This document shows, in pieces, positions 14,893 to 60,930 of a DNA stretch of 64,000 nt. The notes under the pieces were generated by a model that saw nothing but the letters and a program-made list of their open reading frames with translations, searched no databases and had not been told where the DNA came from. This DNA comes from Phycisphaerae bacterium. Lineage in GTDB: Bacteria > Planctomycetota > Phycisphaerae > UBA1845. Location of the stretch: positions 75,920 through 139,919 of the forward strand of contig JAGVHG010000040.1 in assembly GCA_020056715.1 (NCBI GenBank), written 5' to 3'. The position numbers and the translations under genes are program-made. Numbering within the stretch: position 1 is the first letter of the stretch; every line of letters begins with the position of its first letter.

Positions 14893-14894
14893 TT

Positions 14895-22046: not shown

Positions 22047-22122
22047 AATAAAGCTGGTCGTGTCACTCCCGCTCCACGCTCTTATTGGCCCCGCGCTGGC
22101 TTGGGGTTCGGATCGGCGCGCG

Positions 22123-39899: not shown

Positions 39900-39911
39900 G
39901 AGTATGACGTG

Positions 39912-40011
39912 GATTGTCAATTGCCAATTGCCGATTGCCAATTAAAAAACGCAAGTCCACGCGCGTTCCTATTTGGCAATTGGCCCGCCTTCGGCGGGGC
40001 AATTGGCAATG
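39912..40011. repeat. inverted heptamer arrays (GATTGTC AATTGCC AATTGCC GATTGCC AATTAAA ... GGCAATT..GGCAATT GGCAATG) around GC hairpins
   Basis: The left array (39912-39946) and reverse-complement units (39975-39981, 39998-40011) flank the CCCGCC-TTCG-GGCGGG hairpin (about 39984-39998). The element fills the gspG-gspH gap. Confidence 0.7.
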
Positions 40012-40013
40012 AC

Positions 40014-41479: not shown

Positions 41480-41493
41480 GGAACCGAACAACG

Positions 41494-42468
41494 ATGCAAC
41501 ATCGCCCCTTTACGCAACGACGCGGCGTGACACTGCTGGAAATCCTCCTGGCTATGAGTCTCCTGGTGACGCTCACCTCGATGACCTACTGGTTCTATTC
41601 ATCGTCGATGGAGACGAATCAGAGGGGGACGATGGAAGCGGACAAGCTGCGGCTGGCGCGGGTGGTGTTGGACCGCATTACGACGGAGATTCGACAGGCA
41701 AGCTCCACTACGGCCGAGGACCGGATGGGCATCCGCGGCGAAAAGGAGAGCATCGCCATCTCCACGCTTCGCGTCCCCACCAAGGAGCTGTCCAAGAAGC
41801 ATTCGTCGCGAACCGCTCCGCCGCCGGCGGAGTTCGACCTGGTCGCAGTGCAATACAAGATCGCCCGTCACCCGGACATCCTGCATGACGACGGGTACGA
41901 AATGCCGCTTGGACTAGCACGAGTCGAGGTGCTGATCCCGCGAGCGGTGGCTCCTGGAGAAGCCGATACGGGTCAGACTGAGCAGCCCGCCGAGGGATCA
42001 ACGGACGGCGCGGCGCCGCCGGAAAAGGTGTTGTTGGATGAACTTTTCTCGGAGGAAGGAACCGGTGACAAGGATGTGTCATTGGGACCGGACATTAACT
42101 GGGAGGAGCTTTATGCCCCCGAAATACGGTTTCTTCGATTCTGCTACTACGACGGCTACAAGTGGTGGGACGACTGGCAGGTCGCGGGAGAGAACCCGCT
42201 GCCGCAACTCGTGCAGATCACCATCGGGTTCGAGTCGCATCCGCCGTGCGGCGAGGAGTTCGGGCAGGACAAGCTCAACGAGGAGTTTTGTGAGTGCCTG
42301 AACAAAGATCCGGTGGATTGTGAGCCGCTGCCCAAGGACCAGTATTCAACCGTCGTGCGCGTCACCGGGGCCGATCCGCTCTTTCGTTCCCGCGTCAGCC
42401 GCGAGAGTCAATCGGTGATCGACCAGATGGCGACAACTAAGGCCGAAGACAAAGGCGAGGAGCCGTAG
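41494..42468 (+). CDS. minor pseudopilin (GspJ-like)
   Basis: RRGVTLLEILLAMSLLVTLTSM prepilin motif. ATG 41494 or TTG 41476. Confidence 0.55.
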   Translation: MQHRPFTQRRGVTLLEILLAMSLLVTLTSMTYWFYSSSMETNQRGTMEADKLRLARVVLDRITTEIRQASSTTAEDRMGIRGEKESIAISTLRVPTKELSKKHSSRTAPPPAEFDLVAVQYKIARHPDILHDDGYEMPLGLARVEVLIPRAVAPGEADTGQTEQPAEGSTDGAAPPEKVLLDELFSEEGTGDKDVSLGPDINWEELYAPEIRFLRFCYYDGYKWWDDWQVAGENPLPQLVQITIGFESHPPCGEEFGQDKLNEEFCECLNKDPVDCEPLPKDQYSTVVRVTGADPLFRSRVSRESQSVIDQMATTKAEDKGEEP

Positions 42469-46010: not shown

Positions 46011-46028
46011 CACTGCTGACCAGCAGTG
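46011..46028. repeat. intercistronic hairpin CACTGCT-GACC-AGCAGTG
   Basis: Lies 13 nt upstream of ATG 46041. Near-identical to 13628-13648. Confidence 0.55.
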
Positions 46029-46040
46029 ACAGACGAAGTT

Positions 46041-47621: not shown

Positions 47622-50600
47622 ATGAAACACAGACCGATCCGACGAACACGACGCCCCTTGGGGGTTGCAATTCTGTATTTGGCCGTGCTGGGGTCCGTCG
47701 GGAGCATGCCCTTCGCGCTTGCGCAGGTTCCCACCCAACCCGCCCAACCCACTCCACAGCCCGCGACTAAGGGACGTCGAACGAGCAACATAAAACCGCC
47801 TGTCCAGCCGCAACAAACGGACGAGCCAAAGACCGCGCCTGACGCCGAGGTGGAGACGCCCAAGGAGGCAGAGACCGCGCAACCGCAGACCCCGCCGCAA
47901 CCGATCCCACCACGCCCCGTGCGTCCGACGCCAGGCAAAGGGGTCGAACCGAGCGACGCAGCTGTCAAACCGACAATGCCGGAAGGCGCTCTTGATCCCG
48001 CTCGCGGCGCGGTCGCGCAACCACAGCCACAGCCAACAGCGGAAGCCCCGAAGAAACCCGATGAATCCGAAGTGGACCCGGCCAAGCGGGTGGAAGAGGC
48101 GCGTAAGGCAGCCGCGGATCGCGCCGCTGCGCGGCGTGCTCGCACCGGACAAGGTACGGACGCGACGGGTAGACCAATTGCGGGTCAGCCCGCCACGGGT
48201 GCGACGGGCTTACCTTCGGGAGCGGGTTCTATGCCGGTCATGCCGCCGTCGGGGGAGACGATGGGGGAGGTTCCGCCGGACGGCGAGCCGTCGACGACGC
48301 TCAACATCGCTCCGGCGGAAAGCGACGTGCCGCCGGAAGCGAGGATGTACGGATTCAGCATCAAGGACGGTACCTACGAACAGCTCATTGCGGGGTTCGC
48401 CCGGCAGACGGGGCTGGGCGTGATCGGCGATGCGCCCAAGGATGGGAAGGTGACGTTCGTTACTACAGAGACATTGACTTTCGATCAAACGCTCGCTCGG
48501 GTTCAGATGCTACTGTTCAAGTACAAGCCGCACGAGCCGTATTGGATCGTGCGCAACGAGACAAACCTGGAGGTCAGCAAGGTCAACGATATTTACCGCG
48601 TCCTTCCGCGGAACCGGATGTTTCGGAACTTGGACGACTACCGCGCTGCCAACCTATCAAGTGACGAGCTGGCATTGGTAGTGTATACGCCCAAGAGCGG
48701 TTCGATCGCCGCTTTGAAGCAAGTTCGGGACTGGCTGCCGGATTATGTGCGGGTGACGCCACTCGATGAGCAAAACAGCGTCACCATCTTCGCTCTGGTG
48801 AGCGACATCGAGAAATATCTCTGGTTGCTGGACTGGATCAGCGGAGCGCGCACGGACCCGCGGACGCTCACGAAGATCGAGGTCCGTCACCTCTTGGCAA
48901 GCGAGGCGCTCAACCGGATGCGACAATTGATGGACATCGAGGGGGCGCCGCAGGGTAGGCCGCAGACGGCGGTTCCGAAGCGCGCTGCGCGGGAGCCGAG
49001 CGCCTTGGACACCATGCCCGAGCCGCCCGTAACGGTGATCGCCGACGACGCCCAGGGGATCCTCCTGGTGCGGGCGATGCAGGACAAGATCGACGAGATC
49101 AAGCTGCTTCTGCCCTTCATCGACGTGGACCTGTCGACACAGTCACCGGCGCCTGTGATCGTAAAGCTGCAATACGTGGACGCGAATGATATGATCGCCA
49201 CGCTGCAGCAAATCCTGTCCGCGTCGTCGACGCCGCCGGGGACGCCTACGCCGCCCAGGGCGAAGAAGGGAAAAAAGGGCCTTCCCACGCCCGCGGGGAC
49301 GGCGCCTATGGGCGCATCGGGTACAGCTACAGCTCCGGAGAGCATCACGCTTCTGCCTCACCCCTCCGACAACGCGATCATAGTGCTCGCCGACGAAGAG
49401 GGGGTGGCGCGGGTCCGTGAGTTGGTCACGCTTTTCGACGTGTCCACGACGATGGACCCGATACGGCTTCCGTTGTCCCACGCGGACGCGAATGAAGTGC
49501 TCAATACCATTACGGCCGTGTTGGGAGCGGCTAACCCCAAAGGGAAGCCGGCCCTCGACCGGTTTACCGTGGTCGTCGATCCCGCCGGGGATGCGGTGTG
49601 GTTCAGAGGCGGCGACAAGGACCTCGCCAGGGTGAAGGGCTTGATCGAGACGATCGACGTCGCGGGGGAGCCGGTGTCGCTCCGGGTGGTGATGTTGAAG
49701 TACCAGCAGCCGACGTTCGTATCGAACATGCTGCGAGAGTTCGAGGGGACCAACTCGGCGTCCCCGACGCCGGCGCCGGCGGGGAGAAAACCAAAGAGCA
49801 AACGGGCCGTGTCGGTTCAGACTTCGAAGTTCACTCCGGACGATACGACGAACAGGTTGTTCATTATTTGTACGGAGGACGATTGGGCGCGGTACCAGCC
49901 GCTGATTGCGCAGCTCGACCGGCCGGCGGATGACGGGGAGGTGTTCGTTCGCCTGCCGCTTCAGCACGCCGAGCCGAACACGGCCATCGACCGTCTTGTA
50001 GCGATGCTCGGTGACGGGGAGAGCGTGCGGTTCATCCCCAGCGAGGGGAGCATCCTCGTGGTGGGAGCGAAGCCTCAGCAGATCGAACGCATCAAGGTGT
50101 TTATCGCCGAAGTGGACAAGCCGTCGCATGTGGAGCAGCGGACGTTCGAGATTCGGCACGCCAATCCGGCGGACATCAAGTCGGCGATCGAGAGTCTGAT
50201 CGCGGACATGCCGGTGAAGGCCCCACGACGGCCAAGGAAGGGCGACGCCGGTAAAAGTGGGGTAGCGACGGAGGCGACTGTGACGGACCAGTTGACCATC
50301 GTCCAACTCGGCCAACGGCTTGTGGTCCAGACCACGCCGGCGCGGATGGAGCAGGTTGCGGCGTTGATTGCCGAGTTCGACGTCGAGGAGGCGAAGACGG
50401 AACTGAAAGTGTACGCCGACTTCCCGCCGGGTACGAATATTGAGTCCATCTCCGATACGGTTTCGTCAGTGTTCACGGCGACTGGACGAGGCTCCAAGCG
50501 GGGAAACAAGGACGTCGCGGCGGTGGAGGGGCCGAAGTTCATCCCCCAGCCGGCGTCCGGCAAACTCGTGGTGATCGCCGATCCGTCGGTGTTCCCGGAA

Positions 50601-53600
50601 ATCGAGCGGCTCCTGAACGTGCTGCGGCGTGAGGTAGAGGCGAGGCCGACGATCGTGGCGTTCGTGGAGGTCAAGCACGCCGACCCCGCGGATTTGGTGG
50701 AAAGCATCAAGCCGCTGCTGGATATCAAGATTCGCGGGCTGGTGGAGTCGGGGGAACTGGACGAGGCCGGTGAAGAGGGCGTGGCCGCGCCGAAGATGCC
50801 CAAACGTCGGTCGGCACCCTCTCAAACCTCCAGCGACCGTTATCACCTTTCGCCCGATTCGCGGAACCACCGGATCGTGATTGCGGCGCCGCAGGTTGTC
50901 GTCGATCAAGCGAAGGCGCTGATTGCCCAGTTCGACACCCCGGGCGAAAAGCCTGTCTTCAAGACGGTGGAACTGGCCAACGCGGCGCCGGACGAAATGG
51001 TCCGCGCGGTCAAGGAGATGATGGGCAGGCCGGTGGCACGCAAGGCTGTGAGCACGGGCAAGGGGAAAGCGCCGGTCATGCCGGCCGTGGATTTAGGCGG
51101 CGGAAGCGAAGGGCTGTCGGTCGTCGAGGCGCCGGGTGGCGGCGCGGTGATCCTGCACGGGCAGGCGGCGGAGGTCGCTCAGGCCGAGGATTGGATCAAG
51201 CAACTCGACGCGATGTCCACGCGAGGGCGGACCATCAAGGTTTACGAGATCAAAAAGGCGGACATGGCCAAGCTGTTCGACCTGGTGGTGAACGTAGTCG
51301 GCAGTTCGTCGCCGGCGATGGGCGGTAAGGGCGTGCCGCAAATGCCGCATAGGTCCGCGGGCAAAGGTGCGGACACAAAAGAAAAAGACATTGAGGAGGA
51401 GTTCACCACAAGCAAGACGTTCTCCGGGGCGGACTTGTACATCCAGGCCGATTTGATCGGGAAGACGATGTTGGTTGCCGCGACGCCCTCAAAGGTTGCG
51501 GAGATAGACGACATTGTCGCTCGCTTGGACAAGGGCACGGAGGAGGCGATCGGCAGGGTCATCGGGGCGGACAAGCCGACGCCGAAGTTGATGTACGACC
51601 TGAAGGAGGCCGACGCCATCGACGCGAAATATGCCCTGCGGGACGCGTTCGAGACCATGTGGGAGCCGCGCGATGAGCTTCCCCAGGTGGATGGCTTCGG
51701 GAGCGTGTTGATCGTGCGCTATCCGCACGATGAGCGCTTCGACGAAATCCAGGAATTCATCCGCAAGTACGCGGACAAGCCCGATCCGGAGAAGACCAAG
51801 ATCGTGGCTAAGTCCTTCCCGGCCCCGGCTGGACTCAGGGCTGAGGAAGCGGCGGCTTGGATCAAAATAAATCACCCGGAGATCGTGGTGGACTTGGTGG
51901 ACAAAACGCCCGGTAGCGACAAGCCGTACGAAATCGAACAGATTCGGCCGCTTGCACCCAAGAAAGCCAATCCTTGCGTGTTGCCGGGCGCTTTTCTCCG
52001 GGCGACGGACGCCCTGCTGGGAAGCATCGTCGGTCAGTCTCCACCGCAAAACGGTGCGGGAGGCCAGCCCGAAGCCCAACCATTACCTGAGGAGGAAGCG
52101 ACCGAGGATGAGCCGGAGGAGGAAGTCGCACCCATCCCCACCGGCGATGACATGATTCGGCGAGCGATCACGCCGATCGTTCCTCGGAAGAGCAAGAAGA
52201 CCACTGAGCCCCAAGCCGACGACAAGAGTAAGACGAGTGACAAGTCGAGTGACAAGCCGGGCGAAAAAGCGGACGACAAGAAAGGGCTGACGGGAGAGCG
52301 GATCGAAATCGAATACAACAACGTGGCCGGTGTGTTCGTGGTCAAGGGGCAAGCCGGCGACGTCAAAGAGGTTGATGATTGGCTCGATGAACTCAAAGAA
52401 GGGATTGAGGACTTCCCAGTCAAACCCGACATTCGCATCTTCCGCGTGCGGTACATCGACGTGGACTTGGCGCAGGACATCTTGGAGGAGATGTTCAACG
52501 CCACGAAGCAGCAAACGGCAATGCTGCAACAACAACAGCAGGCCGCGATGCGGGCACAGCAGCAGTTGCAGCAGCGCCAGGGACAGCAGGGACAGCAACC
52601 GGGGGCCAAGGGTCAGCCAGGCGACCAAGCAGGCCCCGGCGCTCCCGGCGCTCCGGGCGGTCGAAACGCGCAGCCGCAAGCGATCCAAGCGCAGCTGGCG
52701 CCGCCGCAGCTTCCCCAGGCGGGCGTACGCATCTATCCCAACCGGCGCGATCGCACTTTGATCCTGCGCGCCGAGACCAGCCAGTATCCGCAGATCGAAG
52801 AACTCCTCGCCACGATCGATCAGCCCAAGCCCATCGACAGCTTCATGCGGACCTATCCGCTCAAGAACCTCAACGCCGCCGAAGTGGAAGAAATCCTGCG
52901 GGAAATGCTGGGGATCGGCAAGGAAGGCGCTCGTCCCAAGGCCGGGGCCGCTCGGACTCCAGGCGTACCGGGTGCACCGGGCGCGTCGGCCGCTCCGGCG
53001 GATCAACTTCCGCAGACGATTTTACAGGAGACGGTCTCCGGGGCGTCACAATTAGGCGTCGATCCTGCGGACATCAAGCTGTTCAGCAGCGAGGTGTCCA
53101 ATACGGTGATGGCCATGGCCCCGAAAAAGGCGTTGGATTTCATCGGGGAGTTAATCAACAAGCTGGAAAGCGAGGACATCCCGCAACGAACCACTAAGTA
53201 CTACGAGTTGAAGCACGCGGACGTAGAAGACGCGGCGGCGTATCTGGAGAGTCACTTCGAGGAGGCGTCGGGGCCGCGTAAAACGCGAAAAGGCGGCGGG
53301 GATGCCGCGGCCGCAGGCCCGGGCGGAAAATCCCTCAACACTCCGAGCTTCGTGCCCTATCCGCGATTGAACTTTCTGACGGTCCAAGCGACGGCGGCGC
53401 AGATCGAAGAGATCGACAAGATCGTCGAACGGATCGACGTGAGCGGGGGTACGGACAAATGGGAGGACGTGGCATTGGCCCACGCCGACGCCAAACTGGT
53501 CGCGGATACGCTGACGAAGATGTTCACCGACAAGAGCGGAGGGGGTACTGTTCCGTCGAAGGCGACGTCCAAGGGCGCGGCCATCCCCAAGTTTATCGGC

Positions 53601-55712
53601 GAGGAGGGCGGCGGGATCGTTTTGTTCAGCGCCCCACCGAGCCTGCGCGAGCAAATCCTGACGACCATTGCCAAGCTCGAAGAGCAATACAAAGAGACGC
53701 GCACCCCGCGAATTATCGAGCTAAAAAACGCCAAGCCCAGCGCCCTGGCGGAGGCGATTGAGAAGGCCTACGACGCGAAAAAAGCGGGAGGTAAGTCGGG
53801 CGGATCGACCCCCGCGCGATTTACGGTGACGGCGCATGATTCGTCCAAGCGGTTATTTGTGATCGCCGATGACGAAACTTTCAAGGAAGTCGAGGCTTTG
53901 GCGAGACTGCTGGATGACAAGCCGGGTACGATCGGGGTGGAGTTTCGGATTTATCCGCTAAAGTTCGCCAGCGCCAAGACCGTTCACGCGCAGATGACCA
54001 AGCTGCTGAAAGACTACCTGTCGCGGTTGGGTCAGGATGCCAATAAGATTGAGGCGTTCAGCGTCGAGCCGGAAGAATCGTCCAACTCGCTCATCGTGCT
54101 CGGCGGTCCCACGGTGTTCGGTTTCCTGGAGGAGAACCTTCGGAAGATCGACACGCCGGAGATGAAGACGAGCCTGCCGGCATCGCTGATTGTCCCCCTG
54201 AGCAACGCGAACGCCGCGGAAGTAGCGGGGAATATCCAAAAGCTGTACGCCGGGAAGGAGCAACCGCTGGGAGTGACCGCGCCGCAAGTGGAGGCGAACC
54301 CGTCGACGAACACGCTCATCGTGCGCGGCACCCAGTCCCAGATCAACGAGATCAAGAAGGACATCATCGACCCGCTGGAAGCGCAAGACAAGCTCGCCAG
54401 ACAGGTGCAGGTCAAGCCGATTAAGTTGAAGTTCGCCGACCCCGCCGGGGCCGCGGAGGTGATCAACAAGCTCTTCCGTTCCGAAGGCAAGAACGCCCGC
54501 GATCAGGTGCAGGCGTCAGCGGATTTCACCTCCAATTCGGTGGTCGTGGCGGCCTCGCCGGAGAACTTCAAACGCATCGAGGATTTGATCGCCCAGATCG
54601 ACAGCGCCGAGACAAGTCAACAGGACGTCCACGTGGTGGAGATCAAGCACGCCGACGCCTCGTCCGTGGCACAGACCTTGACCGAAATCTTCGTCCGCGC
54701 GGCGGCAAAACAGATGGGCAATCAAGCGCCGCCGATCACCATCTCGGCGGTGGCGGGATCGCGGGCGCTGCTCATTAAGTGCAAGACCGACGACTTCGCC
54801 CGCATCAAGGAGACGATCAAGGAGCTGGACAACGAGGACGTCGGCACCGGCGGCGAAGTCCGCGTGGTGACGCTCCTCTACGGAGACGCCAACGAAATCT
54901 CACAAGCGATGGAAAAGTATCTGACCAACTCCGGGGCGGCTGGCGGTCGCGGACCTCGGTTGATGGGCGACGCTCGGATTAGCTCTATGCCGCAGAGCAA
55001 TAGCGTGATGATCAGCGCCGCCAAGGAGGAGGTCGAGCGCTTGGTCGAGATCGCGCACGGGATGGATGTGGCCGGCGAAAAGGGCAGCGTCCCGCAGATC
55101 ATTCCGCTGAAGTACGCAAATGTTGGTATGATCCTTCCCAGCGTGCAGGAGGTGTTCACGGAGACGCGAGGCGGCGGTCGGCGGAATCAGCCCGCGCCGG
55201 TGATCGTGGCCGACGAGGGCAGCAATGCGTTGATCGTGCGGGCTTCCCAGACGGACCTGGCCGCGATCCAGGGGATCGTCACCCAGTTGGACACCGAGGA
55301 CAAGAAAGATAAGACTCCGTTCCGCATTATTAAGGTAGCGGCGGGAATCAACGTGACGGATCTGGCGGAGCAGGTGGAGACGACATTGAACGAAACCTCG
55401 CGGTCCCAGGCCGGTTCGGGGCGCGGGGCGCAGGTTCGGAGCGTCGCGGTGACGCCGAACGTGCGGACGAATAGCCTTGTCGTGTCGGGGTACGCGGCTA
55501 TGTTCGATCAGGCCGAGGCCCTGGTTCGCAAGCTCGAGGAGATGGGTCCGGTGGGCAATCGAGTGACGGCCGTCGTTCCGCTCAAGAGGACCAAGGTCGA
55601 TGAAATCCAACGGCTCATTGACCAGTTGACGCAACAGCCCGGCGGGACGGGTGATTCACGGCGCGGCGGCAGTCGTCCGCGGCCGACGAGTCGCCCGCGA
55701 TCGGGACCGTGA
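47622..55712 (+). CDS. giant secreted secretin-N-repeat protein (N0-like + ~25 N1-type modules, no secretin beta-barrel)
   Basis: Signal peptide (..GSMPFALA-QV) and a Pro/Gln-rich linker. N0/STN-like domain at aa 243-318. Repeated modules then carry the signature h.LK.A.A..h...L..hh ... D.(R)TN.LhV.A......I..LI..LD, e.g. VEIKHADASSVAQTLTEIF..SRALLIKCKTDDFARIKETIKELD. The protein ends without a barrel domain. Confidence 0.75.
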   Translation: MKHRPIRRTRRPLGVAILYLAVLGSVGSMPFALAQVPTQPAQPTPQPATKGRRTSNIKPPVQPQQTDEPKTAPDAEVETPKEAETAQPQTPPQPIPPRPVRPTPGKGVEPSDAAVKPTMPEGALDPARGAVAQPQPQPTAEAPKKPDESEVDPAKRVEEARKAAADRAAARRARTGQGTDATGRPIAGQPATGATGLPSGAGSMPVMPPSGETMGEVPPDGEPSTTLNIAPAESDVPPEARMYGFSIKDGTYEQLIAGFARQTGLGVIGDAPKDGKVTFVTTETLTFDQTLARVQMLLFKYKPHEPYWIVRNETNLEVSKVNDIYRVLPRNRMFRNLDDYRAANLSSDELALVVYTPKSGSIAALKQVRDWLPDYVRVTPLDEQNSVTIFALVSDIEKYLWLLDWISGARTDPRTLTKIEVRHLLASEALNRMRQLMDIEGAPQGRPQTAVPKRAAREPSALDTMPEPPVTVIADDAQGILLVRAMQDKIDEIKLLLPFIDVDLSTQSPAPVIVKLQYVDANDMIATLQQILSASSTPPGTPTPPRAKKGKKGLPTPAGTAPMGASGTATAPESITLLPHPSDNAIIVLADEEGVARVRELVTLFDVSTTMDPIRLPLSHADANEVLNTITAVLGAANPKGKPALDRFTVVVDPAGDAVWFRGGDKDLARVKGLIETIDVAGEPVSLRVVMLKYQQPTFVSNMLREFEGTNSASPTPAPAGRKPKSKRAVSVQTSKFTPDDTTNRLFIICTEDDWARYQPLIAQLDRPADDGEVFVRLPLQHAEPNTAIDRLVAMLGDGESVRFIPSEGSILVVGAKPQQIERIKVFIAEVDKPSHVEQRTFEIRHANPADIKSAIESLIADMPVKAPRRPRKGDAGKSGVATEATVTDQLTIVQLGQRLVVQTTPARMEQVAALIAEFDVEEAKTELKVYADFPPGTNIESISDTVSSVFTATGRGSKRGNKDVAAVEGPKFIPQPASGKLVVIADPSVFPEIERLLNVLRREVEARPTIVAFVEVKHADPADLVESIKPLLDIKIRGLVESGELDEAGEEGVAAPKMPKRRSAPSQTSSDRYHLSPDSRNHRIVIAAPQVVVDQAKALIAQFDTPGEKPVFKTVELANAAPDEMVRAVKEMMGRPVARKAVSTGKGKAPVMPAVDLGGGSEGLSVVEAPGGGAVILHGQAAEVAQAEDWIKQLDAMSTRGRTIKVYEIKKADMAKLFDLVVNVVGSSSPAMGGKGVPQMPHRSAGKGADTKEKDIEEEFTTSKTFSGADLYIQADLIGKTMLVAATPSKVAEIDDIVARLDKGTEEAIGRVIGADKPTPKLMYDLKEADAIDAKYALRDAFETMWEPRDELPQVDGFGSVLIVRYPHDERFDEIQEFIRKYADKPDPEKTKIVAKSFPAPAGLRAEEAAAWIKINHPEIVVDLVDKTPGSDKPYEIEQIRPLAPKKANPCVLPGAFLRATDALLGSIVGQSPPQNGAGGQPEAQPLPEEEATEDEPEEEVAPIPTGDDMIRRAITPIVPRKSKKTTEPQADDKSKTSDKSSDKPGEKADDKKGLTGERIEIEYNNVAGVFVVKGQAGDVKEVDDWLDELKEGIEDFPVKPDIRIFRVRYIDVDLAQDILEEMFNATKQQTAMLQQQQQAAMRAQQQLQQRQGQQGQQPGAKGQPGDQAGPGAPGAPGGRNAQPQAIQAQLAPPQLPQAGVRIYPNRRDRTLILRAETSQYPQIEELLATIDQPKPIDSFMRTYPLKNLNAAEVEEILREMLGIGKEGARPKAGAARTPGVPGAPGASAAPADQLPQTILQETVSGASQLGVDPADIKLFSSEVSNTVMAMAPKKALDFIGELINKLESEDIPQRTTKYYELKHADVEDAAAYLESHFEEASGPRKTRKGGGDAAAAGPGGKSLNTPSFVPYPRLNFLTVQATAAQIEEIDKIVERIDVSGGTDKWEDVALAHADAKLVADTLTKMFTDKSGGGTVPSKATSKGAAIPKFIGEEGGGIVLFSAPPSLREQILTTIAKLEEQYKETRTPRIIELKNAKPSALAEAIEKAYDAKKAGGKSGGSTPARFTVTAHDSSKRLFVIADDETFKEVEALARLLDDKPGTIGVEFRIYPLKFASAKTVHAQMTKLLKDYLSRLGQDANKIEAFSVEPEESSNSLIVLGGPTVFGFLEENLRKIDTPEMKTSLPASLIVPLSNANAAEVAGNIQKLYAGKEQPLGVTAPQVEANPSTNTLIVRGTQSQINEIKKDIIDPLEAQDKLARQVQVKPIKLKFADPAGAAEVINKLFRSEGKNARDQVQASADFTSNSVVVAASPENFKRIEDLIAQIDSAETSQQDVHVVEIKHADASSVAQTLTEIFVRAAAKQMGNQAPPITISAVAGSRALLIKCKTDDFARIKETIKELDNEDVGTGGEVRVVTLLYGDANEISQAMEKYLTNSGAAGGRGPRLMGDARISSMPQSNSVMISAAKEEVERLVEIAHGMDVAGEKGSVPQIIPLKYANVGMILPSVQEVFTETRGGGRRNQPAPVIVADEGSNALIVRASQTDLAAIQGIVTQLDTEDKKDKTPFRIIKVAAGINVTDLAEQVETTLNETSRSQAGSGRGAQVRSVAVTPNVRTNSLVVSGYAAMFDQAEALVRKLEEMGPVGNRVTAVVPLKRTKVDEIQRLIDQLTQQPGGTGDSRRGGSRPRPTSRPRSGP

Positions 55713-55713
55713 G

Positions 55714-55770
55714 TCAGAGCGCCGGGCACAAGCCCGGTGACCGTGTTTGTCCGCAGGCTTGCGCCTGCGG
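55714..55770. repeat. two-hairpin intergenic element, copy B (TCAGAGC + CCGGGC-ACAA-GCCCGG + CCGCAGGC-TTGC-GCCTGCGG)
   Basis: Starts 2 nt after the giant gene stop. It aligns with 11972-12028 and carries paired (compensatory) stem substitutions. Confidence 0.7.
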
Positions 55771-55822
55771 CTCGGCGGGGCGGACTGTGTGGAAGGACCG
55801 GGCCATGGATGGGTTCCGGTGA

Positions 55823-58800
55823 GTGGAGGCAATGGTGATGAGGATGAACGGACAAACGAGGACGGGATGCGTCGGCCGGTGGCGATGGATATTCGCCGTG
55901 GGCGTCTTCGCGGCGAGTTTGTTGTTGGTGGACGGCTCGGCGAGAGGTCAGGCCGAGCGCAGTTCCGAACAAGCGCAAACGCAACAGCCGCCGAGCCCGC
56001 CGGCCCCACAACGCAAGGGTGCAGTGCAGCCGTCGCAACCTGCGCAACGCCCACAGCAACCACGCGGACAAAAACCGCCGGCACAGCCCGATCGGATCAG
56101 CGAGCTGGTGCGCGGACTCGACCCCGCGGTCTTGGCGCAGCTCGCCGGGGCGGAGGTGACGGCCGAGGTGGTCGGCGACCAAGTGATTTTGCAAGGCCCG
56201 GAGGAAGCGGTGAAGGCGATCGAACTGCTCATCCGAGCGCTGGAGGTCGAAAGCGAGTCGAAAGCGAAAGTCCTGCAGGTGGTCCAAGTCACGGAGCGTG
56301 ACGCCGTGGAGATCGCTCGGACCGTCCAACAGGCGGTGCGCGATGCGTTGGGATTCGCAGCGCAAAAACAGGAGGATAAGATCTCCGTCACCGCACTGTC
56401 ATCGAACATTCTATTGATAGCGGCGTCGCCGAAAGAAATCGACCAGGTGATCGACATCATCGAGCAGGTCGACGCGATTCCCGATCCGTTGGGCAAGGTG
56501 GAGTTGATGCGCTTCGACGTCGTGCATCGCAAGGCGGGCGACGTGGCCAAGGAATTGGAGAAGATCATCACCCAACTTCGCGTCGCCGCTGGGCAGAAAA
56601 AGGACCAGGGGAAGCTGCAAATCATTCCCAACAACTCCAACAACACCATTACCGTCACCGCCCGCGAAACCGAGCGCGAGAAGATCCAGGCCCTTATCGA
56701 GAATATCGACGTGGAGCCGAAAAAGGGCTGGGGCGAAATTCGCCTGACCATCTTCCCGTTGCTTCATTCCAAAGCGAGCGATCTCCAGAAAGTCATCCAG
56801 GATTTGATCAAATCGGAGGCCAAGGCGGACAAGGACGCCGTACAGGAGATGATCCAGCGCCTGCGCATAAGCAAGGCCGACGCGACCGGCAAGATGACCG
56901 ACCTTGCACCGATCGATCTTCAGCGCCAATTGCGGATCATCTCTGACACGGGCACGAACAGCTTGATCGTGGCGACGATCGAGGAGAACGTCGAGCCTAT
57001 GGGCGAGTTGATCCGCCTGCTCGACGGCGTGCCGCTCGCGGAGGAGTTCGCGGTCAAGCTGTTTCCCCTTCGCTTCGCCGACGCGGAGACGGTCAACAAA
57101 GTGCTCAAGGAGATGTTCGATTCCGGCAAGAAGCTGCCTGAGGACCCCAACGGCGGCGGAAAGGGCGGCGTCCCCACGGGTTCCGAGGGGCACGCCCTGG
57201 TATACAACGTAGGTCTGGCCACGGACTTGCGCACCAACACGTTGATCGTCTCCGGTCGCCCCGAGCAGTTGGGGCTGGTGGAGACGGTCGTCGGTGAACT
57301 GGACCGCCCCGCGACGGCCCTGAAGTTCCCCTTGCGGCTGATTCCCTTGGAGTACAACGACGCGACCGGGTTTGGGAAGATGGTGACGGAGTTGTTCGAC
57401 CAACGGATGAAGACGGTCGAGGCTACGAACGCGGGCAAGTCCGCCGCGGAACGCGAGCGCATCTTTCTCAGCGTGGACCTCCGCACCAACTCCTTGATCG
57501 TTTCGGCCTCGGAGGAGAACTTCAACGAGATTGTCGCCATCGCCCGGCAGTTGGATACGAAGCCGGCGAAGCTGTTCGACCAAATCCGAATCGTGCCGCT
57601 AGCCAGACTCACCGCCAAGGACATGAAGACCAAGATCGAGGACTTGTGGAAGCGCAAGGCCGATCTGCGCAAGGAGGGCAAGCTGCTCGAGGATCTGCCC
57701 ATCGTGGCCTTCGATGAACGCAGCAACTCGCTCGTGGTCGCCTCCAACCGCGAGGACTTCGACGAAATCCTGCGACTGGTGACTCTGCTCGAGGCCCAGC
57801 CGCTGATCGAAGATATCCGGCTGTTCAAGTTGGAGTTTGCCGACGCGGCCGTCCTTTCGGGGATGTTGGACGAGTTGTTCAAGGGTCTCGCTGGTCAATC
57901 GGAATCCTTCAAGGCGCCCACGATCATTCCCGACTCGCGAAGCAACGCGTTGGTCGTGGCGGGCGCCCGCGACGCGACGGAGCGCGTGGCCGAGGTGGTT
58001 CAACGGCTGGACGTGGAGGCCGGACCGCTCACCGCGGTTTTCAAGGTGTATCCCCTGAAGAACGGCTCGGCCAATCAGCTTGCCCAGCGGATGCAAAAGC
58101 TGTTTGACTCCCGTAAGGAGGGCGAAAAGACCGACCGGACGCCGGTGGTGATTCTGTCGGAGGAGTCGTCCAATAGCCTGGTGGTCAGCGCCTCGCGCGA
58201 CGATCATGACGTGATCGACGGCCTAATCGATCTGCTGGACAAACCGTCGAGTCTTGCCCAGCAATTCGAGATCTTCCCGCTGAAGATGTCCAAGGCCAAG
58301 ACGGTGGCGGAAAAGCTGGACAGCCTCTTCAAAGCACAGGGCGAGGGAACGACGGGTCGGGCGGATGCCATCGCCACGCAGGCCGACGAGCGGACCAACT
58401 CGATCATCGTGTGGGCGTCGCCCTCGCAAATGGCCAACATCGGCGAGGTCATCGCCAAGCTCGACACCTCCACGCCGGCCGTGGAGATGATGATTAAGGT
58501 TATCCAACTCAAGCAGGCGCTAGCGACGGATTTCGCCAAACTGCTCGAGGAGACGCTGATTGGCGACAAGTCCGGCGGCGATGAGGAGCGTGCGGTCATC
58601 GTGTCGTTTCTGGAAAAAAACCCGAACGGCAAGGAAATCCTACGCAAGTTGTTGCGCCAGGACATCCGCATCAAGCCCGACCCTCGGACCAACTCCGTGA
58701 TGGTCATGGCCCCGGCGGACAGTATGTCGATGCTGGAGGCGATGATACTTGACTTCGACCGCATCCGCCCGGTGACCTCCGAAATCCGCCTGTTTCCGCT

Positions 58801-60379
58801 CATTAACAGTGACGCGAAGACCATGGTGGAACAGCTCACGGAACTGTTTAAGGCCGAAGGAGGGACTAAAGAGGGCGAGGCGAAAAGCCAACTGGTGTTC
58901 GGCGCCGCGGCCGAGGGATTGGACCTTGCGAGCGTCGGCCAAGAGCTGCGCTTCGCCGCCGATACCCGCACCAACACGCTCATTGCGGCGGGAGCACAAG
59001 TATACCTGCGGATGGTCGAGGACCTGGTGCGCTATCTGGATTCGCAGGAGGCCGAGGAGCGGGTGAACGAGGTGTACCAAGCCAAGTTCCGCCCCGCTTC
59101 CGACCTCGCCACCGCAGTCCAGGGGTTCATCAAGCAGGAGGTTGACGTGATCGGCGAGGCCGCGGACACGGAGGCGAAGACGAGGAAACAAGAACGACAA
59201 GTGTCCGTCGAAAGCGTAGGAAAGGAAGAGAAGGGGAGCAGCAGTTTGCTGGTGGGGACTAGTCGCCGCGCGTATCAGCGGACGATGGACATGATCCAGT
59301 CCCTCGATCGACCCGAACCGCAGGTCATGATCTCCGTACTGATCGCCGAAGTGTCGCTGACCGGCGGCGTAGACTTGGGGATCGAGTTCGCCGGACAAGA
59401 CCTGACCTTCTCCAAGAAGGCCGTGGTCGGCCCCAACGGCATCGTGCAAGGCAGCGACTTCGACTTCGTCGGCGGCACGGACCTCGGGGCCGCCGGTCTG
59501 GGTTTGGGGGGGTTCAACTTCACTATCACCGGCGAGGACTTCAGTTTCCTCTTGCGGGCCTTGCAACAAGACAGCCGGCTCGAGGTGCTGTCGCGCCCGG
59601 TCCTCATGGTTCGCAACGGCGAAGAGGGCAAGATCACCATCGCCGACAAGGTGCCCATTGTGGCGTCCACGAACCTCAATCCGACCGGTCAAACACAATC
59701 GACCATCGGTCGGGAGGACGTGGGCATCATCCTGACCGCAACGCCGCACATCAGCCCGGACGGTTACGTCACCATTAAGATGAAGCAGGAGATATCGAGC
59801 ATCGGCGCCAACGTCCAACTGACCGAGGGGGTCGCTTCGCCGATTTTCTCCACCCGCGAGGTGGAGACCAATGTGACCATCCGCGACGGGGAGACGGTGG
59901 TGATCGGCGGGCTGATCCAGTCGAGCGATGGACAAACTGAGAACAAGGTCCCCATTCTGGGGGACATTCCGTGGCTTGGCGTGTTGTTCCGCACCACTTC
60001 AGCCACCACCCGCAGGACGGAGCTTATGGTGGTTCTAACCGTCGACATCCTACGCACCGACGAGGACGTGAAGCAGATGTCGGTGGAGCAGCGCGACAAG
60101 TTCTTGCTCCCCGACACCATCCGGCAAAGTCCGTTGATGGAAGGTCTGCGGATCACGCCGCAGGAACAGGCCCTTGGACCGAAGGAGGACCGCGCGTCCG
60201 CCAAGGTGCCCCCGCCCGGTCCGGCGATCGAACCGCGACGCGAGGATCGCGATCTCTATGGACCGCGTCCCAAGACCTATGGGCCGGTGATCACTCGCCC
60301 GACCTCGACGAGCACGACGCAGGGCCCGGTTTACGGCCCCAACATCGCCCGCAACAAGGATTCGGTCGCCCACCCATGA
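55823..60379 (+). CDS. gspD: secretin (GspD/PilQ family) with 12 N-type modules plus a leading half-module
   Basis: Signal peptide. 12 Secretin_N-like modules. C-terminal secretin domain at about 59315-60053 (VLIAEVSL.., LEVLSRPVLMVRNGEEGKITI, PILGDIPWLGVLFR, ELMVVLT). ATGs at 55832/55838/55844 are more likely starts than GTG 55823. Confidence 0.9.
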   Translation: MEAMVMRMNGQTRTGCVGRWRWIFAVGVFAASLLLVDGSARGQAERSSEQAQTQQPPSPPAPQRKGAVQPSQPAQRPQQPRGQKPPAQPDRISELVRGLDPAVLAQLAGAEVTAEVVGDQVILQGPEEAVKAIELLIRALEVESESKAKVLQVVQVTERDAVEIARTVQQAVRDALGFAAQKQEDKISVTALSSNILLIAASPKEIDQVIDIIEQVDAIPDPLGKVELMRFDVVHRKAGDVAKELEKIITQLRVAAGQKKDQGKLQIIPNNSNNTITVTARETEREKIQALIENIDVEPKKGWGEIRLTIFPLLHSKASDLQKVIQDLIKSEAKADKDAVQEMIQRLRISKADATGKMTDLAPIDLQRQLRIISDTGTNSLIVATIEENVEPMGELIRLLDGVPLAEEFAVKLFPLRFADAETVNKVLKEMFDSGKKLPEDPNGGGKGGVPTGSEGHALVYNVGLATDLRTNTLIVSGRPEQLGLVETVVGELDRPATALKFPLRLIPLEYNDATGFGKMVTELFDQRMKTVEATNAGKSAAERERIFLSVDLRTNSLIVSASEENFNEIVAIARQLDTKPAKLFDQIRIVPLARLTAKDMKTKIEDLWKRKADLRKEGKLLEDLPIVAFDERSNSLVVASNREDFDEILRLVTLLEAQPLIEDIRLFKLEFADAAVLSGMLDELFKGLAGQSESFKAPTIIPDSRSNALVVAGARDATERVAEVVQRLDVEAGPLTAVFKVYPLKNGSANQLAQRMQKLFDSRKEGEKTDRTPVVILSEESSNSLVVSASRDDHDVIDGLIDLLDKPSSLAQQFEIFPLKMSKAKTVAEKLDSLFKAQGEGTTGRADAIATQADERTNSIIVWASPSQMANIGEVIAKLDTSTPAVEMMIKVIQLKQALATDFAKLLEETLIGDKSGGDEERAVIVSFLEKNPNGKEILRKLLRQDIRIKPDPRTNSVMVMAPADSMSMLEAMILDFDRIRPVTSEIRLFPLINSDAKTMVEQLTELFKAEGGTKEGEAKSQLVFGAAAEGLDLASVGQELRFAADTRTNTLIAAGAQVYLRMVEDLVRYLDSQEAEERVNEVYQAKFRPASDLATAVQGFIKQEVDVIGEAADTEAKTRKQERQVSVESVGKEEKGSSSLLVGTSRRAYQRTMDMIQSLDRPEPQVMISVLIAEVSLTGGVDLGIEFAGQDLTFSKKAVVGPNGIVQGSDFDFVGGTDLGAAGLGLGGFNFTITGEDFSFLLRALQQDSRLEVLSRPVLMVRNGEEGKITIADKVPIVASTNLNPTGQTQSTIGREDVGIILTATPHISPDGYVTIKMKQEISSIGANVQLTEGVASPIFSTREVETNVTIRDGETVVIGGLIQSSDGQTENKVPILGDIPWLGVLFRTTSATTRRTELMVVLTVDILRTDEDVKQMSVEQRDKFLLPDTIRQSPLMEGLRITPQEQALGPKEDRASAKVPPPGPAIEPRREDRDLYGPRPKTYGPVITRPTSTSTTQGPVYGPNIARNKDSVAHP

Positions 60380-60930
60380 CCACCGTCCAGGCGATGATAC
60401 GGCGAAGGTTTCGGTCGGTGGCGACATGCTTGGGCGTGTTCGCCTTGGTCACCGGCGGATGCCGTTCTTTGGGTAGGACGGACGCAAGCTCACCGCCGTC
60501 GTCGTCGCGCCCCATCCGCTCGGGCGACATTCACGGCGTGGTTTGTCTGTTCGATCAAAAGCCGTGGATCAGCGTCGATGCCGCGGGAGATCCCGATCCG
60601 GAGGGCATCCGCTATCGTGTCTTTCTCGACCCCGGCAAAGGTAAATGCGTTCTACGTGAAGGTTCGTTTCGTATTGAGATGTATCTGATCGATCGCACGG
60701 ACTCCGGCGATACTGAGCGTACGCTGGTGAGCGATTGGAATTATCCGACGAGCGAGCTTGGAACCGTTCTTTCCAAGATTCTCGGCAAAGGCTATCACCT
60801 TCAACTGCGCTGGGCGAAGAAAGACACCGCCGGGCACGAGATCGAAGTGGTCACGCAGTTCATCGATCGATACGGCAACACCACGCGGTCGCCGACCAAG
60901 CGACTCCGCGTGCCGAAGTATTCGTCCTGA
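60376..60930 (+). CDS. lipoprotein, candidate pilotin/secretin accessory
   Basis: Lipobox-like LVTGGC after a basic/hydrophobic signal. Its ATG overlaps the secretin TGA (ATGA). The longer ORF-track version is an artefactual extension. Confidence 0.45.
   Translation: MTTVQAMIRRRFRSVATCLGVFALVTGGCRSLGRTDASSPPSSSRPIRSGDIHGVVCLFDQKPWISVDAAGDPDPEGIRYRVFLDPGKGKCVLREGSFRIEMYLIDRTDSGDTERTLVSDWNYPTSELGTVLSKILGKGYHLQLRWAKKDTAGHEIEVVTQFIDRYGNTTRSPTKRLRVPKYSS

What the first reader, a model, noticed from the sequence alone, without database searches (positions are those of the whole stretch)
55557..56248. Module split across two genes: the giant protein ends in half an N module and the secretin begins with the complementary half
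The last structured segment of the 2,696-aa protein (RVTAVVPLKRTKVDEIQRLIDQLT, nt 55557-55637) has only the beta1-alpha1 half of a module, followed by a short basic/Pro tail and a stop. The first structured segment of the secretin, after its signal peptide and Pro/Gln linker, is AEVTAEVVGDQVILQGPEEAVKAIELLIRALE (nt about 56144-56248). This looks like the missing beta2-beta3-alpha2 half. The break falls where other modules carry long variable loops. The 110-nt gap between the genes holds a repeat element also found at 11972-12028. N0 is at the start of gene 1 and the barrel at the end of gene 2. Together they therefore read like one secretin (N0 + about 38 modules + barrel) split into two polypeptides. 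I can see two explanations: gene fission at a loop, or a designed split-domain handshake that joins two stacked assemblies.
Basis: inference. Interest (0 to 1): 0.85.

Follow-up and report, generated by a model that had tools for sequence, protein, structure and literature searches.

The report
Giant secretin split into two genes
A huge outer-membrane secretion channel that related bacteria encode as one gene of 4,000-5,000 codons is here encoded by two adjacent genes, cut inside one small repeated domain, so the two proteins probably join by rebuilding that domain.

Summary
Gene 1 (47622-55712, 2,696 aa) ends in a strand-helix half module plus an Arg/Pro-rich tail. Gene 2 (about 55838-60379, a GspD-type secretin) begins, after its signal peptide and a Pro/Gln linker, with a strand-strand-helix half module.

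- **Conserved split.** Eight further Phycisphaerae/Planctomycetota loci show the same split, and 39 protein-cluster representatives end the same way.
- **Fused relatives exist.** Syntenic loci in other Phycisphaerae carry one continuous ORF (4,904 and 4,066 aa, no in-frame stop). In it the two halves lie in the same order, separated by a 70-500 aa insert.
- **Intact module in more distant relatives.** More distant giant secretins have this module intact, with a 20-50 aa basic loop, about 14 modules upstream of the barrel.
- **Fission is well supported.** One secretin was therefore cut in a loop. Split secretins form one clade (84% bootstrap).
- **Re-pairing is inferred, not shown.** Both halves keep normal module-level conservation. 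In an AlphaFold model of a joined construct the gene-1 strand pairs into a sheet, and gene 2's half module gains about 25 pLDDT points over gene 2 alone.
- **The intergenic hairpin repeat is real but incidental.** Relatives lack it.

The nearest precedent is the split RhcC1/RhcC2 secretin of rhizobial type III systems. I rate this a new variant of a known kind.

The parts
47622..55712 (+). Gene 1: 2,696-aa periplasmic ring-stack protein. It has a signal peptide, a low-complexity region, an N0-like domain, 23 complete Secretin_N modules and a terminal half module. It has no secretin barrel.
   Evidence: ORF and translation. Pfam Secretin_N 1.8e-177 and no PF00263. NCBIfam TIGR02517 GspD 444 bits, through N-domain repeats only. 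Module map.
48345..48605 (+). N0-like domain of gene 1 (aa 242-328).
   Evidence: Conserved in gene-1-type and fused homologues. The profile's top nine PDB hits are all secretin N0 domains (PilQ 4ar0 E=0.015; XcpQ E=0.075; LspD), so support is weak but consistent.
55539..55631 (+). First half (strand 1 and helix 1) of the split module: EMGPVGNRVTAVVPLKRTKVDEIQRLIDQLT (gene 1 aa 2640-2670).
   Evidence: Conserved in 9 split loci and 39 cluster representatives. In fused ORFs it is followed by the second half. AlphaFold chimera: strand 8-14 and helix 20-31, pLDDT about 75. First-half profile 4.5-6.4 bits, with 0 of 200 shuffles reaching it.
55632..55712 (+). Gly/Ser/Arg/Pro-rich basic tail of gene 1 and its TGA stop. 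The tail is the remnant of the basic loop of the ancestral module.
   Evidence: All gene-1-type proteins end in an Arg-rich tail. Intact outgroup modules have a 20-50 aa Arg/Gly/Ser-rich loop at this position. The four stops I read (window, L008-L010) are all TGA.
55714..55776 (+). Double-hairpin repeat element in the intergenic gap, with a second copy at 11972-12035. It looks REP-like and is incidental to the split.
   Evidence: Two copies against 0 expected. Two 8-bp stems with compensatory differences. No Rfam family. Absent from the junctions of 8 related loci.
55838..60379 (+). Gene 2: GspD-type secretin. It has a signal peptide, a Pro/Gln linker, a half module, 13 complete modules and the secretin barrel. 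It has no N0 domain.
   Evidence: Pfam PF00263 4.1e-47 at aa 1246-1411 and Secretin_N 8.9e-111. TIGR02517 551.6 bits against a cut-off of 351; the match starts at profile position 113, after N0. Start codon inferred from relatives and the GGAGG spacing.
55838..55954 (+). Signal peptide of gene 2 (MRMNGQTRTGCVGRWRWIFAVGVFAASLLLVDGSARGQA). It lies at the position of the hydrophobic segment in fused relatives.
   Evidence: The n-h-c organisation was read from the sequence. All gene-2-type homologues have such a segment. Fused orthologues have a hydrophobic segment at the same position.
56090..56245 (+). Two short helices (aa 90-109) and the second half (strand 2, strand 3, helix 2) of the split module: AEVTAEVVGDQVILQGPEEAVKAIELLIRALE (aa 110-141).
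   Evidence: Second-half profile i-E 2.7e-4. Conserved in all split loci. AlphaFold: strands 87-91 and 94-100 and helix 101-121, with pLDDT 76-82 in the chimera against about 53 when gene 2 is folded alone.
59558..60055 (+). Secretin (outer-membrane barrel and gate) domain of gene 2.
   Evidence: PF00263 at aa 1246-1411.
60376..60930 (+). Conserved lipoprotein of about 184 aa (lipobox LVTGGC). Its ATG overlaps the gene-2 stop (ATGA). It may be a pilotin-like partner.
   Evidence: Homologues follow the secretin in fused loci L006 and L007 and split loci L008-L010, with BLASTP E from 9e-50 to 2e-10. No Pfam or NCBIfam family for the window's copy.

Best explanation
**What it is.** Genes 1 and 2 together are one GspD-type secretin of a type II secretion-like machine. 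The cluster order is GspF, GspG, three minor pseudopilin-like genes, GspK, a PilM/GspL-like gene, a 518-aa bitopic protein, gene 1, gene 2 and a lipoprotein. The host is a Phycisphaerae planctomycete.

**Ancestral form.** In this class the secretin is a single giant chain of 3,000-5,500 aa with up to about 55 stacked N-type modules between N0 and the barrel.

**The cut.** In the window's lineage the gene was cut in the loop between helix 1 and strand 2 of the module that lies 14 modules before the barrel.
- The upstream product keeps N0, 23 modules, strand 1 and helix 1, and the basic part of the loop.
- The downstream product has its own Sec signal peptide, then strand 2, strand 3 and helix 2, 13 modules and the barrel.

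**Shown.** The fission itself, its position in a loop, its age and its conservation.

**Inferred.** After separate export, the gene-1 strand-helix packs onto the gene-2 strand-strand-helix in each protomer. This would rebuild one strand-helix-strand-strand-helix module. It would tie the gene-1 ring stack, which is proximal to the inner membrane, non-covalently to the gene-2 ring stack and barrel. The assembled conduit would then equal that of relatives with a single chain.

**Sub-confidences.** Fission of one secretin at a module loop, about 0.9. Re-pairing of the halves in trans, about 0.6.
For: **Fused orthologues**
- P0019 (4,904 aa; L006) and P0033 (4,066 aa; L007) translate without any in-frame stop.
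- They sit in the same synteny: GspK, PilM_2, an unknown gene homologous to the window's 518-aa ORF, the secretin, then the homologous lipoprotein.
- In them and in eight other fused proteins inspected, the tail-type half module is followed 70-250 aa later by the gene-2-type half module, with about 1,500 aa remaining.
- Fused ORFs recur on several independent contigs.

**Intact ancestral state**
- In 13 of 18 outgroup and 12 of 13 subfamily giant secretins, the best match to the tail profile lies 1,070-1,515 aa before the secretin domain.
- Between 9 and 18 module second halves lie in between; the window's gene 2 has 14.
- In outgroups this module is complete, with a 20-50 aa Arg/Gly/Ser-rich loop.

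**Phylogeny**
- Split secretins form one clade in 168 of 200 bootstraps.
- That clade lies inside a subfamily separated from the outgroups in 200 of 200 bootstraps. All outgroups are single-chain.

**Conservation of the split**
- Nine loci down to about 27-33% identity.
- 39 gene-1-type representatives.
- Both halves keep module-typical conservation at hydrophobic positions.

**Structure**
- In the chimera (gene 1 aa 2640-2696 joined to gene 2 aa 84-300) DSSP assigns a strand to RVTAVVP. A strand call requires a pairing partner.
- The secondary-structure order equals that of the two complete modules downstream, and the gene-1 piece has pLDDT about 75.
- Gene 2 folded alone drops to about 53 in strands 2-3, against 76-82 in the chimera. 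Downstream modules change by only about 5-8 points.
- Foldseek's best matches for the chimera are type II secretins, with the top alignments about 268 columns long (N-terminal domain region).

**Signal peptides**
- Both proteins have signal-peptide-like N-termini, read from the sequence.
Against: - No direct evidence of contact exists. The structure tool returns no coordinates or PAE. The chimera is an artificial single chain, which AlphaFold is biased to close into a familiar fold. The alignment had only 15 rows and overall pLDDT was 70.7.
- The halves are not more conserved than ordinary modules.
- Covariation could not be tested with nine pairs.
- The tail helix scores better against helix-2 profiles than against helix-1 profiles.
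- Fused subfamily members carry a basic stretch and then a hydrophobic, signal-peptide-like segment. In 7 of the 10 fused proteins inspected a rare Trp follows the basic stretch. In the one locus whose DNA I read at that residue (L006) its codon is TGG, one step from the TGA stop used in split loci. This could mean the fused forms descend from split ones.
- The branching order among the split clade and the fused clades is unresolved: 66 of 200 and 31 of 200 bootstraps.
Confidence: 0.6

Rival explanations
1. Fission without a handshake. The gene was split, but the two half modules are leftovers that do not pair. Genes 1 and 2 would associate, if at all, through ring-on-ring stacking or other partners, or gene 1 would act as a separate periplasmic scaffold.
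For: The halves are no better conserved than ordinary modules. The two helices before strand 2 of gene 2 are lost in distant split loci. The AlphaFold evidence comes from an artificial fusion with moderate confidence.
Against: Unpaired half domains with exposed hydrophobic faces would be expected to decay or be trimmed. Instead both persist, with conserved hydrophobic patterns, across a clade diverged to about 27-33% identity and in 39 representatives. Gene 2's half module loses about 25 pLDDT points without the gene-1 piece.
Confidence: 0.25
2. The history runs the other way within the subfamily. The two-gene state, with a true signal peptide on gene 2, arose at the base of the subfamily. The 'fused' ORFs are secondary re-fusions by loss of the stop codon, with the old spacer and signal peptide now read in frame. 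The window would then keep the older state of its subfamily. This concerns history, not present function, and is compatible with the handshake.
For: All ten fused proteins inspected have a basic stretch and then a hydrophobic segment at the junction, with an A-x-A-type site in several (for example MPILIMQLALGTAVAQ-TP). One has a complete Met-initiated signal-peptide-like sequence (MRNNTMLASCLALAVLAQA). Seven of ten have a Trp just after the basic stretch, in proteins where Trp is about 0.4% of residues. In L006 the codon is TGG, one step from the TGA stop used in split loci. In L007 the spacer-like stretch begins with GAA and looks relatively AT-rich by eye; I did not measure its composition.
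Against: It needs one fission plus two to four independent fusions, against a single fission. The hydrophobic segment and the GDAxWTxxRRYD motif are conserved among proteins that fall in different 50%-identity clusters, which argues for a function rather than a relic. Outgroups clearly show the intact module as the deepest state.
Confidence: 0.3
3. Artefact or pseudogene. A sequencing or assembly error or a recent nonsense or frameshift mutation broke one gene, and the two-gene reading has no biological meaning.
For: The two genes are in different frames and 110-125 nt apart, which is what a frameshift plus drift might give.
Against: The same end (half module, Arg-rich tail, stop) and the same beginning (signal peptide, linker, half module) recur in eight other loci from independent assemblies. 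They also recur in dozens of metagenomic proteins, including one 95% identical to the window's. Gene 2 has a full signal peptide and a ribosome-binding-like GGAGG. Intergenic gaps range from 27 to 579 nt.
Confidence: 0.02

Closest known systems
Type II secretion system secretin GspD (PulD/EpsD/XcpQ; TIGR02517, PF00263 + PF03958)
   Same: Gene 2 passes the GspD equivalog cut-off (551.6 bits against 351). It has the C-terminal secretin domain preceded by Secretin_N modules. The modelled modules superpose best on EpsD, ExeD, GspD and PulD. The neighbouring genes are GspF, GspG, GspK and pseudopilin-like genes.
   Different: Canonical GspD is one chain of about 650-750 aa with N0 and three N modules (my own knowledge of the family). 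Here there are about 37 modules. N0 is on a different polypeptide from the barrel, and one module is divided between the two. No GspE ATPase was identified among the ORFs I scanned; the whole window was not scanned.
Split secretin gene of rhizobial-type (Rhc) type III secretion systems: RhcC1/NolW + RhcC2, and HrcIIC1 + HrcIIC2 in Pseudomonas syringae
   Same: A secretin is encoded by two ORFs, one for the N-terminal part and one for the C-terminal part, and this is conserved in a family of systems. Its functional meaning is stated to be unknown (PMC3574062).
   Different: It belongs to a type III rather than a type II-like system. Those two genes are separated by other genes or lie in different segments, whereas here they are adjacent and co-oriented. 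Those secretins are of normal size. I did not test whether their cut falls inside a domain.
Single-chain giant secretins of Phycisphaerae, annotated only as 'secretin N-terminal domain-containing protein'
   Same: Same family and gene order. N0, 24-56 module second halves by my profile and a barrel in one ORF of 3,000-5,500 aa. The junction module is intact or carries a long insert.
   Different: They are one polypeptide. The window's lineage has the same parts in two polypeptides.
Multi-ring PilQ secretin of Thermus thermophilus (recalled from the literature, not tested here)
   Same: A secretin whose extra N-terminal domains form additional stacked periplasmic rings to span a wide periplasm.
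   Different: It has about six rings in one chain, belongs to a type IV pilus system and is not split.

Membership tests
GspD-type secretin (TIGR02517 / PF00263 + PF03958) | C-terminal secretin domain (PF00263) | tested here: met
   Gene 2 aa 1246-1411, E = 4.1e-47. Absent from gene 1.
GspD-type secretin (TIGR02517 / PF00263 + PF03958) | Score above the curated equivalog cut-off | tested here: met
   Gene 2 scores 551.6 bits against 351.35, covering profile positions 113-600. Gene 1 scores 444.2 bits, but only through 13 repeated N-domain stretches.
GspD-type secretin (TIGR02517 / PF00263 + PF03958) | N0 domain at the N-terminus of the same chain as the barrel | tested here: not met
   The gene-2 match starts after N0. 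An N0-like domain is found only in gene 1, at aa 242-328, with weak PDB support (E = 0.015-0.7, all hits N0 domains). The feature is met only if the two genes are taken together.
GspD-type secretin (TIGR02517 / PF00263 + PF03958) | Encoded with other type II secretion genes | tested here: met
   GspF, GspG, three pseudopilin-like ORFs, GspK and a PilM/GspL-like gene lie directly upstream. No GspE ATPase among the ORFs I scanned.
GspD-type secretin (TIGR02517 / PF00263 + PF03958) | Forms a 12-15-mer outer-membrane pore | not testable with these tools
   Needs biochemistry or cryo-EM.
Split secretin genes (RhcC1/RhcC2 type) | N-terminal and C-terminal parts of a secretin are encoded by separate, conserved ORFs | tested here: met
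   Nine loci and 39 + 10 cluster representatives.
Split secretin genes (RhcC1/RhcC2 type) | Belongs to a Rhc-type type III secretion cluster | tested here: not met
   The neighbourhood is type II/pseudopilin-like, not type III. The resemblance is therefore an analogy, not membership.
Naturally split domain reassembling in trans | Homologues exist in which the two pieces form one contiguous domain | tested here: met
   Fused ORFs and intact outgroup modules.
Naturally split domain reassembling in trans | Both pieces stay under constraint after the split | tested here: met
   Module-typical conservation across nine loci, with hydrophobic positions kept.
Naturally split domain reassembling in trans | The pieces physically associate to form the domain | tested here: inconclusive
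   In the single-chain chimera model the gene-1 strand is paired, and the gene-2 half module rises from pLDDT about 53 to 76-82. No coordinates, PAE or multimer model were available.

The most novel reading that the evidence does not exclude
In this subfamily the conduit may always be built from two separately exported pieces joined by a split N module, whether or not the genes are fused. The conserved basic stretch, hydrophobic helix and AVAQ-TP site inside the 'fused' ORFs would act as an internal export or processing signal, either by internal initiation or by cleavage. Lineages would then toggle between one-gene and two-gene encoding by single stop-codon changes (TGA to TGG and back) without changing the assembled machine. 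The split module would be a dedicated, reusable non-covalent connector that lets ring stacks, by my estimate over 100 nm long, be assembled from manageable parts across the enlarged planctomycete periplasm.
Probability: 0.2. Interest if true: 0.8.

Novelty: new variant of a known kind. Interest (0 to 1): 0.6.

Why it matters
**A clean natural experiment.** Secretins are usually treated as single-chain ring formers. Here the same giant conduit exists in three states in one bacterial class:
- with an intact module;
- with a long insert in that module;
- cut into two genes at that insert.

**What it could teach.**
- If the halves re-pair, this is a natural split-domain connector between two stacked oligomeric rings. 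That bears on how very long periplasmic conduits are exported and assembled.
- It would also give a testable design for joining ring assemblies.

**Scale of the family.** Phycisphaerae encode secretins with up to about 55 ring modules, which I did not find described in the searchable literature. At about 3 nm per ring (my estimate from known GspD structures), such a conduit would be 100 nm or more long. That points to an unusual envelope-spanning machine worth imaging.

Tried and rejected
- **Stop codon read as Trp.** I suspected the fused ORFs were gene-calling artefacts with TGA read as Trp, because a Trp follows the basic stretch. This is rejected: in L006 the codon is TGG, all 21 Trp codons are TGG, and the ORF has no in-frame stop under table 11.
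- **Tail-only profile search.** A search of the 5.8-billion-protein set with the tail profile returned only three fragments and missed known members.
- **MAFFT misalignment.** MAFFT repeatedly aligned gene-2 N-termini onto the last gene-1 module. A shorter construct was needed.
- **Half-profile test.** Scoring first-half and second-half profiles against the two termini does not discriminate cleanly. The tail helix scores higher with the helix-2 profile.
- **Narrow half-module HMMs.** They were too weak to map the junction in the more distant fused proteins.
- **BLAST of outgroup modules.** Outgroup 'intact' modules hit other complete modules of genes 1 and 2 better than the halves. Positional equivalence therefore had to be argued from distance to the barrel.
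- **N0 checks.** A single-sequence PDB search and Pfam gave nothing.
- **Searches of the gap.** Rfam and the sigma-70 promoter scan found nothing relevant there.
- **Internal ribosome-binding sites.** Looking before the internal Met of fused ORFs was uninformative.
- **Covariation.** It was not attempted, because only nine pairs were available.
- **Literature.** Searches found nothing on giant planctomycetal secretins.

Full report
**1. What is in the window**

The + strand carries a type II secretion-like cluster. In order it holds:
- GspF (38147-39376);
- the major pseudopilin GspG (39435-39899);
- three ORFs with prepilin-like N-termini (39909-42468);
- GspK (42469-44406);
- a PilM/GspL-like protein (44396-46006);
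- a 518-aa protein with one N-terminal hydrophobic helix (46026-47582).

Gene 1 and gene 2 follow. Gene 1 (47622-55712) encodes 2,696 aa and gene 2 (ORF from 55823, likely start ATG 55838, to 60379) about 1,513 aa. Pfam finds only Secretin_N repeats in gene 1. In gene 2 it finds Secretin_N repeats plus the secretin domain PF00263 at aa 1246-1411. NCBIfam places gene 2 above the GspD equivalog cut-off, and the match starts after the N0 part of the model. A lipoprotein gene of about 184 aa starts at 60376, overlapping the gene-2 stop.

**2. The observation**

I built a profile of the second half of the module (strand 2, strand 3, helix 2) from the window's own repeats. It maps 23 complete modules in gene 1 and 13 in gene 2.

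After the last complete module, gene 1 continues with EMGPVGN-RVTAVVPLK-RTK-VDEIQRLIDQLT (aa 2640-2670, nt 55539-55631). It then ends in a 26-residue Gly/Ser/Arg/Pro tail and TGA.

Gene 2 has four parts at its N-terminus:
- a signal-peptide-like N-terminus;
- a Pro/Gln linker;
- two short helices;
- AEVTAEVVGDQVILQGPEEAVKAIELLIRALE (aa 110-141, nt 56150-56245), which matches the second-half profile (i-E 2.7e-4).

The intergenic repeat is also real. There are two copies of a 26-nt core where none is expected by chance, each forming two 8-bp hairpins with compensatory differences. It is not in Rfam. The junctions of eight related loci lack it, so it is incidental.

The N0 assignment for gene-1 aa 242-328 has weak but consistent support. 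A profile of this region from homologues has nine top PDB hits, all secretin N0 domains, with a best E of 0.015.

**3. One caveat on the half-module labels**

Profiles of first and second halves built from the window's 26 cleanest modules do not separate the two readings of the tail. Its helix (VDEIQRLIDQLT) looks as much like a helix 2 as a helix 1: 8.3 against 4.5 bits.

Three things support the strand-1/helix-1 label:
- its position directly after the helix 2 of the preceding module;
- the PLK-turn-helix signature shared with other first halves;
- above all, the homologues described next.

**4. The split is conserved**

A scan of one genome per species found five related loci in Phycisphaerae/Planctomycetota assemblies, at 62-82% identity. 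All five have the two-gene arrangement, the same half-module end with a basic tail, and the same signal peptide, linker and half-module beginning.

Three more distant split loci (gene 2 at 27-33% identity) show the same. Their stops are TGA and their gaps are 140-579 nt.

In a search of 1.84 billion cluster representatives, 39 proteins end in this half module followed by an Arg-rich tail. One metagenomic protein 95% identical to the window's ends at the same residue. An assembly error or recent pseudogene is excluded.

**5. Relatives with one ORF exist**

The same search returned many secretins of 3,000-5,500 aa with the barrel at the C-terminus. In about twenty of them, which form one subfamily with the window's gene 2, the pattern is this:
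- the best match to the gene-1 tail is internal;
- in the ten I inspected, a gene-2-type half module follows 70-250 aa later (gaps reach about 500 aa in other members);
- about 1,500 aa remain, which is the size of gene 2.

I fetched the DNA for two of them. P0019 (4,904 aa) and P0033 (4,066 aa) are uninterrupted ORFs under the standard code. Their neighbours match the window's. Upstream lie GspK, PilM_2 and a homologue of the 518-aa ORF; downstream lies the homologous lipoprotein. Several fused proteins were seen on multiple independent contigs.

**6. The deepest state is an intact module**

In 13 of 18 outgroup giant secretins, the best tail-like match lies 1,070-1,515 aa before the secretin domain. 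Between 10 and 18 module second halves lie in between, against 14 in gene 2.

There the module is complete. It reads ...EKMKPxxG-tlRIIqLen-vDPxevqkAIdQLfgg, then a 20-50 aa Gly/Ser/Arg-rich loop, then vxTsVLxxqrs-iLVnAs-eEDFexIxkLaxaLDe. The Arg-rich tail of gene 1 is thus what is left of an ancestrally basic loop.

**7. Phylogeny**

I built a neighbour-joining tree of the secretin domain plus the 350 residues before it.
- All split secretins form one clade (168 of 200 bootstraps).
- That clade lies within a subfamily separated from all other giant secretins (200 of 200).
- The other subfamily members and all outgroups are single-chain.
- The order among the split clade and the fused clades is unresolved (31-66 of 200).

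The simplest history is one fission. A fission at the base of the subfamily followed by re-fusions is not excluded (see section 9).

**8. Do the halves re-pair?**

Across nine split loci both halves keep the conservation typical of other modules, including the hydrophobic positions. They are not unusually conserved.

I folded a chimera of gene-1 aa 2640-2696 joined to gene-2 aa 84-300, so the natural tail serves as the linker. It used an unpaired alignment of 15 rows.
- The gene-1 strand is assigned as strand by DSSP, so it is paired in the model.
- The element order is strand, helix, disordered linker, two short helices, strand, strand, helix. This equals that of the two complete modules that follow.
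- The gene-1 piece has pLDDT about 75.

Gene 2 folded alone, with the same gene-2 alignment rows, drops to about 53 in strands 2-3, against 76-82 in the chimera. Later modules change by 5-8 points. Foldseek's best matches for the chimera are type II secretins, with the top alignments about 268 columns long.

This is compatible with complementation but it is not proof. The tool gives no coordinates or PAE, and a single-chain construct favours closure.

**9. An unexplained feature of the fused relatives**

All ten fused proteins I inspected carry, at the junction, a basic stretch followed by a hydrophobic segment of 13-20 residues. It often has an A-x-A-type site, as in MPILIMQLALGTAVAQ-TP. One carries MRNNTMLASCLALAVLAQA, which reads like a complete signal peptide. 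This is the position of gene 2's signal peptide.

Seven of the ten have a Trp just after the basic stretch, although Trp is about 0.4% of these proteins. In L006 it is TGG, one transition from the TGA that ends gene 1 in split loci. Two readings fit:
- the fused forms arose from split ones by stop loss;
- the ancestor already had an internal hydrophobic segment that later served as gene 2's signal peptide.

The segment and a GDAxWTxxRRYD motif are conserved between proteins that fall in different 50%-identity clusters, which suggests a function. I could not decide between these readings.

**10. Comparison with what is known**

The proteins are GspD-type by domain content, curated score and gene context. 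No single chain has both N0 and the barrel.

A split secretin gene is a known peculiarity of rhizobial-type type III systems (rhcC1/nolW and rhcC2; hrcIIC1 and hrcIIC2), whose significance is stated to be unknown (PMC3574062). That is a different secretion system, with non-adjacent genes and normal-sized secretins.

I found no paper on planctomycetal giant secretins or on a secretin cut inside an N domain. The library is incomplete, so this is not proof of absence. In NCBI these proteins are named only 'secretin N-terminal domain-containing protein [Phycisphaerae bacterium]'.

**11. Verdict**

The main interpretation, one secretin divided inside a module at a loop, is supported by fused and intact homologues. 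The handshake is the most likely functional consequence (about 0.6) but is untested. The intergenic repeat is irrelevant. I rate this a new variant of a known kind and moderately to highly interesting. It is a rare, well-documented case of gene fission inside a small domain of a ring-forming machine, with natural one-gene and two-gene versions available for experiments.

Noticed in passing
Loci L006 (P0019 aa about 3145-3215) and L007 (P0033 aa about 2385-2450); also P0047, P0029, P0149, P0152, P0157, P0080, P0112, P0121: Fused single-ORF orthologues carry, between the two half modules, a basic stretch and then a signal-peptide-like hydrophobic segment. In one clade it follows a conserved GDAxWTxxRRYD motif, for example MPILIMQLALGTAVAQ-TP. 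Its role inside an exported chain of 4,000-5,000 aa is unexplained. It could be an internal start, a processing site, or a relic of a former gene boundary.
   Followed up: partly
window 60376-60930 (+): A conserved lipoprotein of about 184 aa (lipobox LVTGGC) starts with an ATG overlapping the secretin's stop (ATGA). Homologues follow the secretin in both fused and split loci. No Pfam or NCBIfam family matches the window's copy. It may be a pilotin-like partner.
   Followed up: partly
Proteins P0018-P0160, for example P0052 (5,277 aa, 56 module second halves) and P0024 (5,532 aa, 55): The four proteins that carry a source name are all from Phycisphaerae. The search returned a large, diverse family of single-chain giant secretins (3,000-5,500 aa) with 24-56 module second halves by my profile. 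I did not find them described in the searchable literature.
   Followed up: partly
window 55714-55776 and 11972-12035 (+): A REP-like element of two 8-bp GC-rich hairpins sits 2 and 10 nt after the stop codons of two unrelated + strand genes. The two copies differ by compensatory changes. It has no Rfam match and is absent from related loci.
   Followed up: partly
window 46026-47582 (+): A 518-aa protein with one N-terminal hydrophobic helix and no Pfam or NCBIfam family. It is conserved directly upstream of the secretin in fused loci (BLASTP E = 5e-19 and 4e-10). It may be the inner-membrane partner (GspC/GspM-like) of the N0 end.
   Followed up: partly
window 51774-52820 (gene 1 aa about 1385-1733): One module of gene 1 carries an insert of about 250 aa with acidic, Lys/Ser-rich and poly-Gln stretches. 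It is the largest loop in either protein.
   Followed up: no
window 20977-21813 and 17231-18697: Two sets of direct repeats lie inside long minus-strand ORFs (20597-22066 and 16902-18914). One has 117-123-nt units in 4-6 copies. The other has a 30-nt motif (…CCGTCCCATTCCCA…) nine times at spacings of 117-291 nt. They probably encode repeat proteins.
   Followed up: no
window 14807-14902; also 4679-4710 and 22030-22054: A 36-nt inverted repeat made of AAACGCCGAAACGCCGAAA-type units, with related arms elsewhere in the window. It may be another dispersed palindromic element.
   Followed up: no
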